A DNA stretch of 63,929 nt, the filler included, from an uncultured Acidimicrobiia bacterium (GTDB taxonomy: Bacteria > Actinomycetota > Acidimicrobiia > Spongiisociales > JAOTWH01), in NCBI GenBank assembly GCA_964347285.1. It is 9 parts of 9 records of this genome, joined end to end, with 100 filler letters (N's around TTAATTAATTAA, not from the genome) between each part and the next. Parts side by side here need not be neighbours in the genome. Positions count along the whole stretch, not along the records: positions 16,062 to 23,896 come from CAYFYE010000106.1; positions 23,997 to 31,620 come from CAYFYE010000107.1; 7 more parts are not named here. The stretch is one strand, 5' to 3'. Shown in pieces: positions 18,001 through 24,000 of the stretch (positions are counted from its first letter, which is position 1; every line of letters starts with the position of its first letter). Position numbers: made by a program.

Positions 18001-21000
18001 GAGCGCCTGTGGCAGTCGTTCGGCGTGCTGCCCGCCATCCGGACCGTCGGCGTCCAAGGGGACGAGCGTTCTTATGCCTATCCCCTGATCGTGCGAGCGG
18101 TGACGAGCGAGGATGCCATGACCGCCGATTGGGCCCGGTTGCCCCACGACGTCCTGGAGCGCATCTCGTCCCGGGTGATCAACGAGATCCCCGGTATCAA
18201 TCGGGTGGCTTACGACGTCTCGTCGAAGCCGCCGGCCACGATCGAATGGGAGTGACTAGGCCGTACTGCCTAGTCACCGGAGCCCGCCCCCGAAACCGGC
18301 CCATTCTTGCTCCGTTGCGGGCCCTCGGTGCGTCGTAACTCCTCAAGGGGCCTCCCTACCCGGACGATAAATCCCTGAGTAGTTACCCAACGACGAGGTG
18401 CCCATCGTGTCGTTCTCGAACGACGACGAGCTGCGCGAACTCTTCCGCCAGGAAATAGAAGAACGCGTCCAACAGCTGGTCCAGGGCGCCCGGACCATGG
18501 CGTCGGGCGAGGTGACCGACGAGGTGGCCGGGACCATGTTCCGGGAGGGCCATACGATCAAGGGGACCTCGAGGGTCATGGGATTCGACGCCATGTCCCG
18601 GGCCGGCCAGGCGCTGGAGATGGTTTGGCGCAAGATCCAGCACGGCGACCTGGAGCCGAGCAGTGCGCTTGGTGAGGCTCTCGAGGACCTGGCGGCGGCC
18701 ATCCCCGGTGCTCTCGACGAGGACGCCGAGGAGGGTGGTGCTGCGCTGCGAGTCGCCCTCAAGAAGCTCGATGAGGTGGTGGTGGTCCAGGAAAACATCG
18801 ACGGGCCCGAACCACCCGCCGAGGAATTGCCCCCCGAGTCGCTCCAGGAAGCCCCATCGGGGGAGGCGTTCGAACTCGGCGGCCTGCTCAATGCACTCGA
18901 TACATGGGCGTCCGAGGAGACCGCCCGGGTCAATTCCGCACAGATGTACCGACTCATCAATACGGTGGCTTCACTCAGCATCCACACCCAGGCGCTTCAA
19001 TCGATGGTGCTCGACCTTTCCGACTCCCTTGGAGACGAAGAGTCGGGAACCTCGGCAGTACAGCGACTGGCAGGAACGCTGCAGGCTATGGAAAAAACCA
19101 TCAACTCGGCTCGCCAGACCGCCCTCACGTTGGCCGCAGCACAGCTGAAGGACGTGACCAACACCTTCCCGCAGCTCGTCAACTATCTGGCCAAGAAGAC
19201 CGGGAAAGAGGTCCGCTTCGAGCTGATCGGCGATGAGGAGTCGGTCGACCGTCAGATCCTCGAGCGCCTCGCCGATCCTCTTCGACAGCTCATCGTCAAC
19301 GCAATAGAGCACGGCATCGAGATGCCGCAGGAGCGGGAGGAGGCCGGCAAACCCCCCACCGCCACTCTGGCCGTGCGGGCCATGGTCAAGGAGCACCGCA
19401 TGGAGATCGTCGTCGAGGACGACGGGCGCGGCATCGATTGGAGCGCGGTGCATCGCACCGCACTGCGCCGCGGCTTGCTTCCCGAGGGACAGCCACCCGA
19501 AGAGGGGGCGTTGCGAGCGCTCCTGTTTGCCCCCGGCTTTTCGACGGCCCTGGCACCGAGCGAGCTGGTCGGAGACGGCACCGGGTTGACGATGGTGGCA
19601 GAGTCGATGGAGCAGCTGCGAGGAAGCCTCGACCTGGAGACCGAGCTGGGGAGCGGCACCAGGGTGACGATTGCCGTTCCGACTTCGCGTGCCCTCCAGG
19701 ACGCGCTCTTGGTTTGGGCGGCCGGAAACCAGTGGGGCATCCCGGAGGCTGCCGTGGCCGATACCTTCCCGATTCACCCCGATGAGGTGGTGGTGGACGC
19801 TCGTCGCACGATGGTGACCTGGCTCGATCAATTGATCCCGGCCACCAGCTTCGCGGCGGCGGTGGGGCTCTCGGAGGACGAGCAGCCCACCCAGGCGGTC
19901 GTCGTTCGGAGTCCGGCCGGCCAGGTTGCCCTCACCGTTCCCAACATCATTGGCCAACGTCAGGTGGCCGCCAAGGAGCTGGGACCCTTGCTGGCCGGAG
20001 TGCCCCACCTCACCGGCGCTGCTCTGCTGGGCGGCGGTGATGTGGTGGTGCTGGTCGATCCCGGCAGACTCGCCGAACGGGCTCGCGAGGTCCCGGAAGT
20101 GACCGGACCGCGGCCCCGGGTCCTGGTCGTCGACGACTCTCAGGGCGCCCGACAGGTGGTCGCCGGTGCTCTCGCCTCGGACGGGTTCGATGCCTCGGTG
20201 GCGGGCAGCGTCGAGGAGGCCCTGGCGCTTCTCGTCGAGTCACCGGTCGATGCCCTCGTCGTCGATTACTCCATGCCCGGTTCGGACGGCATCTCACTCG
20301 TGAGGCAGATCCGTCAGCTCTTCGGTCGGCTCCCGATCATCATGCTGTCGGGTGTCGCCACCAGCGAGGATCAGGAGCGGGCCCGCCTCGCCGGGGTCGA
20401 CGCCTACTTCGACAAGGCCGACTTCCGTGAAGGCGCCCTGGCTTCCACCCTTCGCTCGCTGGTCGCCGAGCGCAAGACGGAGGTGGCCGGATGAAGATCC
20501 TCGTGGCCGACGACAGTCCCGTTCTGCGGGCGGCCGTCTCCAAGCTCCTCGAGCCCGAGGGCTTCGAAGTCGTGACCGCCGAAGACGGAGTCGACGCCAT
20601 CACTCGCTTCTACGAGGAGGCTCCGGACCTGGTGCTCCTCGATATCCAGATGCCGAGGCTCAACGGTTATGTGGTGTGCCGACTCATCAAGGAAGACCCG
20701 GCCGCAGCCGACGTTCCGGTGATGATCCTCACGGTGCGCAGTTCGGCGGAGGATCGCTACTGGGGGGCCAAGTCCGGGGCCGACGGCTACCTGACCAAAG
20801 ATGCCTTGGGGGAGGAGCTCGTCAGCTCCATCAAAGCGGCCCTGGCCAGCCGGGCGCTCCACGAGCTCTCGAGTGGGGAGCCGCTCACGTCGCCGGGAGA
20901 GCATGAGTCCGACGTCCTCACCAGGGTCTGCGAGATGCTCGATCGCAAGCTCTTCGAGGCGACCGTAGTCAACGAGATCACGGCCGTCGCTGCCCGGCCG

Positions 21001-24000
21001 GTGGGACTCCAGGGCACCGTCGACGAGATCCTCACCAGTCTGAGCCGCCTCATCAACTTCGATGCCTCGGCGATCGCACTCCCTGAGGAGGGCCGACTCG
21101 AGATGCTCTGCCACCGACGGCCGTCGGACCAGGACGTGGAAGAATTCAGGACGACCTGCGCAGATCACCTCCGGGAGATGCTCGGGGGCGGGGCCCTACC
21201 CGCAGAGCTGCAGACGAGGATCACGGTCCAGTCCGAACAGGGCGAGATCACCGAGCCGCGCGGCTGGCTGACCTTCTATGCGGTCCCGCTGCGCAGCCGC
21301 GGCCAGCTCATCGGCATGCTGGCGTTGGGGGCGTTCCTCCCCGGAGCGTTCAGTGACGCCACCCATCGGACGCTGCGCACGGTGACTCCGTCCATCGTCT
21401 CGGTACTGGACTCGGCGCGGCAGTTTCAGACGACCCTGGCCGACGAGGCCTGGGCCACCTTCTCTTCGCTCGGCTGAGGGTTACCGGCGCCCGGCCGCGC
21501 CGGAGTTTGCGCCACCCCTCCGTATACTCGATCTCCCCGATGGATTCCTCCATCCTCGACGATCTCAACCCCGCCCAGCGCCAGGCAGTCGCGACGATCG
21601 AGGGGCCGGTCCTGGTGGTGGCCGGCGCCGGATCCGGCAAGACCAGGGTGCTGACCCATCGCATCGCGCATCTCATCGGTGACCTGGCGGTGTCGCCCTA
21701 TGCGCTGCTGGCGATCACGTTCACCAACAAGGCCGCCGACGAGATGAAGGAGCGGGTGCGAGCCCTGGTCGGCAGCGTGGTCGAGGGCATGTGGGTCTCG
21801 ACGTTCCACAGCGCCTGCGCCCGGATCCTGCGCCGCGAGGCGCCCCGCCTCGGATACCGCTCGGCTTTCAGCATCTACGACGAGGCCGACTCCCTGCGCC
21901 TCACCGCCTACTGCGTGAGCGACCTCGACCTCGACCCCAAGCGCTTTCCACCCAAAGGAATTCGTCAGGCAATCAGCAACGCCAAGAACGAGCTGATCGA
22001 CTACGAGAGCTTCGCCGCCCAGGGCAGCGGCGCCTATCACGAAAAGGTGGCCGACGTCTACCGCTTGTACCAGCAGCGACTCCTGGAGGCGTCGGCCATG
22101 GACTTCGACGACCTGCTGATGGTGATGGTCGAGCTGCTAACCGCTTTCCCCGAGGTCCTCGAGCACTACCAGGACCGCTTTCGCTACATCATGGTCGACG
22201 AGTACCAGGACACGAACGCGCCCCAGTACGAGATCGTCGCGGCCCTGGCCGCCGAGCACCGCAACCTGTGCGTCGTGGGCGACGACGACCAGTCGATCTA
22301 TGGCTGGCGCGGCGCCGACATCAGCCGCATCCTCGGGTTCGAGCGGGACTGGCCCGACGCTTCGGTGGTCCTCCTGGAACAGAACTACCGGTCGACCGAG
22401 GTCATCCTCGAAGCGGCCAATGCGGTGATCGCCAACAACGCAGCTCGCAAGCCGAAGCGGCTGTGGACGGATCTGGGTCGGGGCGAGGCCGTCGTGGCGT
22501 TCGAGGCCCAGGACGAGCGCGATGAGGCGGCGTTCCTGGCCGAGGAGATAGGGGTGCTCGAAGAGGGGGGCCGGGCCCTGAGCGAGCTCGCCATCTTCTA
22601 TCGCACCAATGCCCAGAGCCGGGTGATCGAGGAGACCTTCGTTCGCTACGGGGTGCCTTACCAGGTGGTGGGCGGGCCGAAGTTCTACGACCGCAGGGAG
22701 GTCAAGGACGCCCTGGCCTATCTGCGCATGCTGGCCAACGAGGATGATGCGGTCGCGGTCAAGCGGATCGTGAACGTCCCCAAGCGAGGCATCGGCGACA
22801 CCACCATCGGCCACCTCGACCGCACCGCCGAGGCCGAGCGCATCTCCTTCTTCGACACGCTGCGCCGGGCCGAAGCCAACGAGCGGCTCAGCACCAGGGC
22901 CCGGCGCCAGATCGCCGAGTTCGTGGAGTTGGCCGACTTCCTTCGCCACAAGGCCGAGGGAGGCCCGCGCGCCGCCGTGGATGCGGTGATCACCGAGACC
23001 GGCTATCTGGACGCCCTCCAGGCCGAAGGAACCATCGAGGCAATGGGTCGAGCCGAGAACCTGAAAGAGCTTCTGACGGTCGCAGAAGAATTCGAGGAGT
23101 CGGCGCCGGGTCTCCTCTTCGACGGTCCCGTCTGGGAGGAGCTCGACGGCCTGGAACGGGTCGAGCGGTTTCTGGAATCGGTGAGCCTCGTCTCCGATAT
23201 CGACTCCTTCGACGACCATGCCGGGGCGGTGACGCTGATGACACTCCACAATGCCAAGGGCCTCGAGTTCCCGGTCGTGTTCATCGCCGGCCTCGAGGAG
23301 GGCGTCTTTCCCCACATCCGGACGCTGGGCGATCCCGACCAGCTCGAGGAGGAGCGTCGGCTCGCCTACGTCGGTATCACAAGGGCCCAACAGATCCTGT
23401 ATCTCACCCATGCCTGGAGCCGCAGCCTGTGGGGCGGCACCAGCTACAACTCGCCCTCACGATTTCTGGGGGAGGTGCCGGACGAGCTGCTCCGCTCCGT
23501 CAAGCGAGAGCGCCGCCCCGAGATGGAGGAGGCCCGACCCCGTCCGACGCTGGACGGTTCCCAGCTGGCGGTGGGGGATCGGGTCCGCCATGAGCACTGG
23601 GGGTTGGGAACCGTCACCGAGATCCTCGGGGACGGAGATCGGGCCGAGGCCGTGGTCGGCTTCGACACCGAGGGGGACAAGCGGCTTCTTTTGGCCTGGG
23701 CGCCGCTGGAGAAGGTCACCTAGCTGTTCTGTCCATAGGGGTTGTTGACACTCGGCCGTTGACCTTCTCGCTTGGGCAGCTCGGTCAGCAGCTGCAGCCT
23801 GCCGGGCGCGCGCCCAGCGTGGTCTTTCGAGTGGGCGCGATTGCCGGATCGGCTCGGACCCGAGTGCGCGATATCGCTCTTGGCGGTGGGTGATCTNNNN
23901 NNNNNNNNNNNNNNNNNNNNNNNNNNNNNNNNNNNNNNNNTTAATTAATTAANNNNNNNNNNNNNNNNNNNNNNNNNNNNNNNNNNNNNNNNNNNNGCAC

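What a model noticed while it worked through the whole genome (the two positions that open the first line are those of the whole stretch)
18407..21477. Receptor-less CheA-CheY hybrid kinase conserved in an order with no chemoreceptors, CheW, CheR or CheB
g02301 is an intact CheA (Hpt, kinase, CheW-like P5 and receiver domains) followed by a receiver-GAF protein, fixed between guaA and pcrA across Spongiisociales, in genomes that encode no chemoreceptor, no separate CheW, CheR or CheB. It is a chemosensory-type kinase that must be controlled without a receptor array.
Evidence so far: 21 of 25 order genomes carry it; MCPsignal is found in 1 of the same 25, and that genome has a second separate CheA locus. 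In five 90-100% complete genomes (one in 2 contigs) the only CheW domain is inside this CheA, and CheR and CheB are 0 of 5. Phospho-His (HT[IV]KG), N, G1 and G2 boxes kept in 8 of 8 relatives parsed; guaA neighbour in 9 of 9 loci, RR-GAF partner in 7 of 9. PMC10746217 (passages, call 203) defines the core as receptor+CheA+CheW+CheY; searches 87, 92, 202 found no receptor-less CheA.
(Added by a program. Inside this text positions count along the whole contig: they may not be those of the stretch shown here. "Call 12" and the like, gene names such as g00115 and contig names such as C1 are that model's own, and its searches are not shown. The text may have been shortened before it was handed on; [...] marks where a part breaks off. 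The agent that wrote the report below was given it as the finding of a first reader that could run no searches.)

Follow-up and report, generated by a model that had tools for sequence, protein, structure and literature searches.

The report
Chemotaxis kinase rewired without its receptors
A whole order of uncultured Acidimicrobiia keeps a chemotaxis-type kinase although the receptors and adaptors that normally control it are gone, and it appears to have been reconnected to an ordinary membrane sensor kinase instead.

Summary
The CheA-receiver hybrid is in 99 of 121 sampled genomes of the order. Chemoreceptors occur in 4, CheR in 3 and CheB in 3, never at this locus. All 15 genomes tested that carry the nearest outside relatives have receptors. 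Three other Acidimicrobiia hold a fuller cluster (cheW, cheA, REC-GAF, cheR; cheB in two, receptors in one) at the same guaA-pcrA site, so this locus is a stripped ACF/Wsp-type system. It is no relic: dN/dS is 0.08-0.19 in every domain and the ATP-binding residues are kept. CheA-universal residues in the ATP lid and P1 changed together, including an apparent charge swap. The REC-GAF partner is dispensable (54 of 99). The steadier companion is an orphan membrane histidine kinase: in 97 of the 99 genomes, next to cheA in 48, and with a diverged phosphotransfer helix in the one genus that deleted cheA but kept it. Most likely this kinase sets the phosphorylation of CheA's receiver and so replaces the receptor array. 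That wiring is inferred, and the output is unknown. The scan noted this operon before on other DNA (e1-1428514).

The parts
16714..18255 (+). guaA, GMP synthase (upstream anchor of the locus, not part of the system)
   Evidence: GATase + GMP_synt_C; same anchor in outgroup loci L065, L067, L081
18407..20494 (+). cheA-REC hybrid, 695 aa (P1-linker-P3-P4-P5-REC; no P2 hit)
   Evidence: Pfam; PDB sequence and fold matches to CheA; orthologue in 99 of 121 order genomes
18428..18703 (+). P1/Hpt domain; phospho-His49 at 18551-18553; the His 19 residues further on (T. maritima H64) is lost, and a basic residue stands at the T. maritima D71 position
   Evidence: PF01627; ungapped alignment to 1tqg; counts
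18914..19141 (+). P3 dimerisation helices (approximate bounds)
   Evidence: No Pfam H-kinase_dim hit; two long helices in the AlphaFold model, which matches CheA P3-P5 chains
19142..19681 (+). P4 ATP-binding domain: N298, H302, D338, G389/G391/G393 kept; lid Arg replaced by Asp390
   Evidence: model P4 fits solved CheA P4 at rmsd 1.6-3.3 A
19703..20080 (+). P5 CheW-like domain, the only CheW-like domain found in the genome
   Evidence: dN/dS 0.105
20120..20476 (+). C-terminal receiver; acidic pair, Asp620, Ser648 and Lys670 invariant in the clade
20491..21477 (+). REC-GAF protein (Asp51), with no output domain; a homologue of REC-GAF-GGDEF proteins of other chemosensory clusters that lacks the cyclase domain
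   Evidence: 34-35% identity over residues 2-313 to REC-GAF-GGDEF genes in L342 and L347; present in 54 of 121 genomes
21540..23723 (+). pcrA/uvrD helicase (downstream anchor, not part of the system)
   Evidence: open frame from 21507, first ATG at 21540

Best explanation
This is the kinase of an ACF/Wsp-type chemosensory cluster that lost its receptor, both CheW, CheB and CheR in the ancestor of the order (shown by gene order and tree). It was kept and re-tooled (shown by selection and fixed substitutions). It most likely still binds ATP and phosphorylates its own P1 histidine without an array (inferred). Its new input is an order-specific orphan class I membrane histidine kinase (in this genome G000:C14:10861-12186, outside the window). 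That kinase phosphorylates or dephosphorylates CheA's own receiver and so gates how much phosphate P1 holds (inferred). P1 passes phosphate to REC-GAF where that gene is kept, and to unknown receivers otherwise (inferred). The output is unknown.
For: Origin: G125 and G130 have guaA-cheW-cheA-cheB-REC:GAF-cheR-cheW-(GTPase)-pcrA, and G128 has guaA..MCP..MCP-cheW-cheA-REC:GAF-cheR..pcrA. The clade is one branch (100/100, stem 1.06) inside a 96/96 group with these CheAs, G137, G133 and two proteins of unknown origin. Selection: dN/dS P1 0.19, P3 0.09, P4 0.11, P5 0.11, REC 0.08, guaA 0.09 (15-18 close pairs each). ATP site in 81 clade sequences (T. maritima numbers, anchored): N409, H413, D449, G451, G453, G504, G506 81 of 81; G502 78; T531 75. 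Concerted change: lid Arg (E. coli R471) is Asp in 58 of 82 and never Arg, while the P1 position modelled as its salt-bridge partner (E. coli D74; PMC10653900, passages) is Arg/Lys in 71 of 82 against 6 of 81 outside. Two of three Arg of the proposed kinase-off P1 docking patch (E. coli R335, R338, R341; PMC12767644, passages) are Thr (77 of 81) and Gln (77 of 81). [quoted passage not shown] Partner kinase: 99 of 121 genomes, 97 shared with cheA, on the same strand within 2.5 kb of cheA in 48, and in 19 of those genomes REC-GAF is absent, so CheA holds the only receiver of the unit. It is 42% or less identical to anything in 5 receptor-bearing outgroup genomes. No response regulator was recognised beside it in 9 unlinked loci (by sequence clustering and reading, not Pfam). 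In genus g13 cheA and REC-GAF are deleted and the kinase stays between guaA and pcrA (sixth genome by its H-box). Its first DHp helix matches the order consensus at 0.36-0.40 in the three scored, against a mean of 0.85 (lowest 0.68) in the others, while guaA (78%), pcrA (70%) and a REC-GGDEF control (62%) are ordinary there. The helix is equally conserved with or without REC-GAF (0.87, n=45; 0.84, n=40).
Against: No activity or contact is shown. The g13 case is a single evolutionary event, and its CA domain also diverged (0.48-0.50 against a mean of 0.65, lowest 0.44). Joint loss in family f10 says nothing, because f10 also lacks the REC-GGDEF control (0 of 13). The kinase is unlinked to cheA in 49 of 97 genomes, including this one. 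New fixed residues appear in both receivers (CheA REC 5 gained, 11 lost; REC-GAF REC 6 gained, 4 lost), so they may track the changed P1 and not the partner kinase. Residues tied to autophosphorylation are changed: E. coli R379 to Val (Ile already in receptor-bearing orthologues), D342 to Tyr/Phe, R471, and P1 H67 (0 of 82 against 79 of 81). The salt bridge behind the charge swap comes from a docking model, and the outgroup position is mixed, not always acidic. P5 keeps its CheW-facing residues and one receptor contact (I563 as Val/Ile in 77 of 81), which this model does not explain.
Confidence: 0.45

Rival explanations
1. Relay scaffold. P4 no longer autophosphorylates P1 to a useful degree. 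Phosphate runs from the membrane kinase His to CheA REC Asp, then to P1 His, then to a downstream receiver, as in a four-step phosphorelay. P4 keeps nucleotide binding as a sensor or as a drain.
For: Loss of lid Arg and Asp, of the D342 equivalent and of the second P1 His. The two other Hpt domains of this genome also lack that His. Two genomes (G099, G061) carry an extra stand-alone copy of P1 beside cheA. All partner-kinase evidence fits equally well.
Against: ATP-binding residues and the CheA-specific HGxE..R...GK motif are 93-100% conserved, and P4 dN/dS is 0.11. The P1 catalytic Glu position is kept. The reciprocal P1-lid charge change suggests P1 still docks on P4.
Confidence: 0.25
2. 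Autonomous kinase. CheA runs constitutively, or is tuned by nucleotide ratio or by an unknown ligand of P5 (P5-P5 rings or a new protein). The membrane kinase acts in parallel on a shared downstream receiver, not on CheA.
For: P5 is under purifying selection and has new invariant residues (Gln431, Trp443, Gly444) although no CheW exists. Known systems show CheA and a class I kinase converging on one pathway (R. centenum Che3, PMC3868531 Discussion part 1; adenylate charge control of CheS3, PMC4436063 abstract).
Against: No shared downstream receiver was found. REC-GAF is missing from 45 of 99 carriers while the kinase helix stays conserved, and the REC-GGDEF candidate is kept unchanged where cheA is lost.
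Confidence: 0.2
3. A conventional array exists, with a receptor and CheW too divergent to detect or missing from the assemblies.
For: I563 and the CheW-facing residues of P5 are kept. G089 and G057 have a lone MCP. G092 has a second CheA and a CheR yet no MCP was found, so bins can miss receptors.
Against: The MCP tip is very conserved and was found in 15 of 15 control genomes. Genomes in 1-2 contigs lack it. Unfiltered custom profiles in the own genome returned an M23 peptidase, Clp proteins and an amidotransferase. The four weak PF00015 hits are unrelated to one another. I560 became Glu/Ala in 66 of 81.
Confidence: 0.07
4. A decaying remnant carried along between housekeeping genes.
For: Long stem branch; lost in f10 and g13; a frame break in G110 and G014.
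Against: dN/dS matches guaA in P3, P4, P5 and REC; intact in 10 families fully or nearly; many newly invariant positions.
Confidence: 0.03

Closest known systems
ACF-class chemosensory systems with a CheA-REC hybrid (Wuichet and Zhulin classes as summarised in PMC10746217 and PMC3868531; Pseudomonas Wsp as the type example, recalled)
   Same: CheA-REC architecture; nearest relatives sit in complete MCP-CheW-CheA-CheB-CheR clusters with REC-GAF, REC-GAF-GGDEF or REC-GGDEF genes.
   Different: No MCP, CheW, CheB or CheR. These papers take MCP + CheA + CheW as the minimal core. Lid and P1 signature residues are changed.
Rhodospirillum centenum Che3 (CheA3-REC plus the class I kinase CheS3); Myxococcus Che3 with CrdS/CrdA (listing only)
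   Same: A CheA-REC hybrid wired to a class I histidine kinase; the fused receiver acts as a phosphate sink (PMC3868531 Discussion part 1).
   Different: Che3 keeps MCP3, CheW3, CheB3 and CheR3 (abstract), and CheA3 acts on the kinase's receiver. Here the partner kinase has no receiver, so flow would run the other way.
MAC1/MAC2 methyl-accepting coiled-coil systems (bioRxiv 10.1101/2022.05.07.491037, passages)
   Same: Chemosensory parts working without a separate MCP-CheW-CheA array.
   Different: MAC proteins hold receptor and kinase in one chain and keep CheB/CheR. This system keeps CheA and drops everything else.
Four-step His-Asp-His-Asp phosphorelays and repurposed kinases such as Caulobacter DivL (PMC4211667, listing only) and ChpT (recalled)
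   Same: Kinase, receiver, Hpt and second receiver are all present; a kinase domain may have changed role.
   Different: The receiver and Hpt are parts of a CheA with a CheW-like domain, and both the phospho-His and the ATP-binding residues are intact.

Membership tests
CheA (class II histidine kinase) | N-terminal Hpt domain with phospho-His | tested here: met
   PF01627; H-box present in all 82 clade rows parsed (rows were picked by this motif)
CheA (class II histidine kinase) | P3 helical dimerisation domain, P4 with N/G1/F/G2 boxes, P5 CheW-like domain | tested here: met
   P3 by model only, with no Pfam hit
CheA (class II histidine kinase) | ATP-lid motif SGRGVG[LM]D | tested here: not met
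   Arg in 0 of 82 clade rows; GRGxG[LM] in 86 of 87 outside representatives before filtering
CheA (class II histidine kinase) | ATP-dependent autophosphorylation of P1 | not testable with these tools
   Needs purified protein
ACF-class chemosensory system | CheA fused to a C-terminal receiver, descended from ACF-type clusters | tested here: met
   MiST class models were not available, so the class label rests on architecture and neighbours
ACF-class chemosensory system | At least one chemoreceptor in the genome | tested here: not met
   95 of 99 carriers without PF00015 over cut-off; 15 of 15 controls with
ACF-class chemosensory system | Separate CheW | tested here: not met
   2 of 121 genomes, both at a second che locus; none in own genome
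ACF-class chemosensory system | CheB and CheR | tested here: not met
   3 of 121 each; those examined lie at a second che locus (G047, G014) or beside a hybrid kinase (G088); the CheR of G092 was not examined
ACF-class chemosensory system | Output other than flagellar or pilus motility | tested here: inconclusive
   FlhA in 6 of 121; pilus-type ATPases in 5 of 5 genomes, with no link shown
His-Asp-His-Asp phosphorelay | Sensor kinase, receiver, Hpt and terminal receiver encoded together | tested here: inconclusive
   All four in one unit in 29 of 97 genomes; terminal receiver missing in 45 of 99
His-Asp-His-Asp phosphorelay | Phosphate flows kinase to REC to Hpt | not testable with these tools
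   Needs phosphotransfer assays
MAC systems | Receptor coiled coil and kinase in one chain, with CheB/CheR | tested here: not met
   No MCP-like region in the protein; CheB/CheR absent
Pseudokinase (DivL/ChpT type) | Loss of the phospho-His or of ATP-binding residues | tested here: not met
   His and N409/D449/G-box residues kept; loss of activity by other changes is not excluded

The most novel reading that the evidence does not exclude
A chemosensory kinase has evolved back into a two-component circuit. After losing the array, CheA became self-sufficient through a charge-swapped P1-lid interface and loss of its kinase-off docking patch. A membrane histidine kinase acting on the fused receiver became its sole input, and the orphan P5 domain took on a new partner or self-assembles. 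It would be a natural array-free CheA, fixed across an order, with the ancestral state still visible in sister lineages.
Probability: 0.4. Interest if true: 0.85.

Novelty: new variant of a known kind. Interest (0 to 1): 0.72.

Why it matters
Receptor, CheW and CheA are treated as the minimal core of any chemosensory system (PMC10746217 passages; PMC3868531 Discussion part 1). Here CheA persists alone under purifying selection across an order, beside relatives that keep the full cluster at the same site. That gives a before-and-after pair for an open question: how arrays switch CheA on and off, and which P1-P4 contacts are productive or inhibitory. The residues that changed (E. coli R338, D342, R471, P1 H67 and D74) are ones that current models place at those contacts, so swapping them between the two versions tests the models directly. 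It also warns that a CheA hit in these genomes does not imply chemotaxis.

Tried and rejected
1. Complex prediction of the partner kinase dimer with CheA REC: no answer; not used as evidence either way. 2. AlphaFold pTM as a sign that REC packs on P4/P5: 0.79 for the clade and 0.79 for a receptor-bearing control, so it does not discriminate. 3. RNA runs: none was listed. 4. A hidden CheW (E 0.002 in own genome) is a glutamine amidotransferase; weak CheW hits in 730-860 aa frames of five other genomes form one cluster whose member read looks like a P-type ATPase (by reading, no Pfam). 5. Weak MCP hits are an EnvC-like peptidase, a NusG-like protein, a short frame and a PAS kinase (by reading and BLAST). 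6. REC-GAF as the obligate output: rejected. 7. An order-wide REC-GGDEF (G000:C39:15778-16710) as output: present in 105 of 121 and kept in 6 of 6 g13 genomes without cheA, so no link. 8. New REC residues as proof of the partner kinase: rejected because both receivers changed. 9. Horizontal spread: no orthologue-level hit outside the order in 141 other-order genomes of the class sample or 394 of the phylum sample; two of the 80 loci carry an Acidobacteria title and were not examined. 10. Literature: nine searches showed no report of a receptor-less CheA; one search matched 6,788 papers and one search matched 136, of which 20 each were listed. The library lacks most subscription papers; one review (PMC8727887) was not held. 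Work on class III histidine kinases is recalled only and was not found. No supplements were read; Tables S3/S4 of PMC10746217 might list such genomes. 11. Promoter and terminator scan: nothing above chance.

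
Full report
What is in the window. The window is a string of contigs; the finding lies on C106. It holds a guaB-like fragment, guaA, a 695-aa Hpt-P3-P4-P5-REC protein (18407-20494), a 328-aa REC-GAF protein (20491-21477) and pcrA. The large protein matches T. maritima and E. coli CheA by sequence and by fold. No NCBIfam model reaches its cut-off. The genome is 90.5% complete in 187 contigs.

Absence of the array. In 121 order genomes the orthologue is present in 99, counted by hand from the match list. 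It was not found in family f10 (0 of 13), in genus g13 (0 of 6) or in three fragmented bins. PF00015 passes its cut-off in 4 genomes, CheR in 3, CheB in 3, and a separate CheW frame occurs in 2. G047 and G014 have these genes at a second che locus; G088 has CheB and CheR beside a hybrid kinase. G089 and G057 have a lone MCP and no second CheA was found; this counts against my reading but is not a conserved feature. The control worked: all 15 genomes tested that carry the nearest outside CheA-REC proteins have an MCP. Profiles built from 21 MCP pieces and 17 CheW proteins, run unfiltered on six frames of the own genome, gave only unrelated proteins. FlhA is in 6 of 121. Two unpublished genomes, G004 and G016, are counted in the order tallies, and G432; no claim depends on them, and they may not be published without permission.

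Where it came from. In three Acidimicrobiia of other orders the same interval holds a fuller cluster. G125 and G130 read guaA-cheW-cheA-cheB-REC:GAF-cheR-cheW-GTPase-pcrA and have their MCPs elsewhere. G128 reads guaA..MCP..MCP-cheW-cheA-REC:GAF-cheR..pcrA. G133 and G137 have similar clusters, but their anchors were not seen. A tree of P4-P5 (49 rows: 15 clade members picked to span families, 5 of these relatives, 29 others) gives the clade 100/100 on a long stem. It sits in a 96/96 group with the five relatives and two representatives of unknown origin; the order inside that group is unresolved (a quick tree of 63 rows agreed). Further relatives in the phylum sit in full clusters: 13 of 15 loci show an MCP of full length, and two contigs end beside cheA. 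Two of them have REC-GAF-GGDEF genes that match REC-GAF over its whole length. So REC-GAF is a cyclase-less version of a WspR-like output (WspR label recalled), and it was already cyclase-less before the receptors were lost.

It is maintained and re-tooled. Pooled dN/dS over close pairs is 0.08-0.19 in all five domains, against 0.09 for guaA (pairs with saturated synonymous sites were dropped, leaving 15-18 of 23). ATP-binding residues are kept. T. maritima numbering comes from the alignment, and E. coli numbers from PMC12767644, PMC10653900 and PMC10410752 (passages; also section 10 of PMC10653900) were mapped by offset. The lid Arg and Asp are gone in all 82 clade rows. Outside, 86 of 87 representatives had GRGxG[LM] before I filtered on it, and the exception was a clade fragment. 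The P1 position modelled as the lid Arg's partner is basic in 71 of 82 clade rows and 6 of 81 others. I read this as a charge swap that keeps P1 docking on P4; it rests on a docking model. The second P1 His is lost (0 of 82 against 79 of 81). In the proposed kinase-off patch, R338 became Gln; R335 is Thr here and Pro in the receptor-bearing orthologues. The phosphate-binding R379 is Val here but Ile in those orthologues too, so that change came earlier. In P5, I560 became Glu or Ala in 66 of 81. I563, a receptor contact by NMR (PMC13098124, passages), is kept, I566 varies as it does outside, and the residues I recall as CheW-facing are kept. Why P5 is conserved without CheW is unexplained.

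The likely new input. In 10 of 20 wide loci a small HisKA-HATPase kinase with one predicted membrane helix follows cheA; REC-GAF follows in 7 and neither in 7. Its orthologue is in 99 of 121 genomes at E below 1e-58, plus one contig-end piece counted in; three g13 hits at 41-42% were counted out. 97 are shared with cheA and 48 are adjacent. In families f1, f2, f9 and f11, which group together weakly in the CheA tree (99, 82/65), it lies at another conserved site with about five membrane helices and no recognised regulator beside it. This genome has that form at C14. Receptor-bearing outgroups have no orthologue. In genus g13 the kinase stayed between guaA and pcrA when cheA and REC-GAF were deleted, and its H-box helix changed in all six genomes; three of them have frame breaks, as do some housekeeping genes there. 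Housekeeping neighbours and an unrelated regulator did not diverge. Since the helix is just as conserved where REC-GAF is missing, CheA is the simplest partner. This is one natural experiment plus gene order, not proof. Its H-box has Glu at +1 and Thr at +4, which I recall as marks of a kinase that is also a phosphatase, so either direction of control is open.

Mechanism and odds. Gated autokinase with the membrane kinase acting on the fused receiver: 0.45. Relay scaffold with an inactive P4: 0.25. Autonomous kinase with a parallel partner: 0.20. Hidden receptor: 0.07. Relic: 0.03. The first two share the link to the membrane kinase (0.70 together). Shown: domain content, absence of array genes in the sample, ancestry, selection, fixed substitutions, linkage. 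Inferred: activity, phosphate flow, input. Unknown: signal and output.

Relation to what is known. It is a CheA by architecture and descent, but the system fails the membership tests for an ACF chemosensory system (no MCP, CheW, CheB, CheR). It may work like R. centenum Che3, where a CheA-REC and a class I kinase are coupled, but with the array removed and the flow reversed. Nine paper searches showed no receptor-less CheA; the library is incomplete and no supplements were read. I had found the kinase before reading it (note 44). That note left receptors elsewhere in the genome open; the genome-wide searches here address that.

Verdict. Real, order-wide, and a new variant of a known kind. Interest 0.72.

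Noticed in passing
L224 (G001:C29) and L225/L226 (G035:C178): In two f2 genomes a whole flagellar cluster lies just upstream of cheA, with a lone 140-aa receiver and two histidine kinases between; neither genome has an MCP. Four more order genomes have FlhA, three of them without an MCP.
   Followed up: partly
L097:11052-11435 (G099) and L098:9833-10222 (G061): A stand-alone copy of the P1/Hpt domain (127-129 aa, His intact) sits directly upstream of cheA.
   Followed up: partly
L065:2954-3493, L067:5903-6559, L081:15782-16273, L066, L346: A small P-loop protein resembling MglA/Rab-type GTPases (label by reading; Pfam hits weak) accompanies the receptor-bearing clusters and was not seen in the 20 wide order loci.
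   Followed up: no
L128:8091-14384 (G088): Cache-HAMP-GAF hybrid kinase with three receivers, then CheR, receiver-less CheB and REC-GGDEF, with no MCP in the genome.
   Followed up: partly
L071:3219-4118 (G089) and L079:8875-9348 (G057): Lone MCP genes (299 and 157 aa) away from any che gene.
   Followed up: partly
L231:2279-3211 (G000:C39:15778-16710): A REC-GGDEF protein with a GGDDF motif is very highly conserved across the order (105 of 121, mostly 62-84% identity).
   Followed up: partly
family f2 loci L088-L092: The P1-P3 linker is much longer in f2, giving CheAs of 830-1060 aa.
   Followed up: no
L142:7549-10346 (G110) and L083:2959-5036 (G014): cheA is in two frames in these genomes; a real split or an assembly error was not decided.
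   Followed up: no
window 12069-12377: A 309-bp stretch is identical to C134:1490-1798 of the same genome.
   Followed up: no
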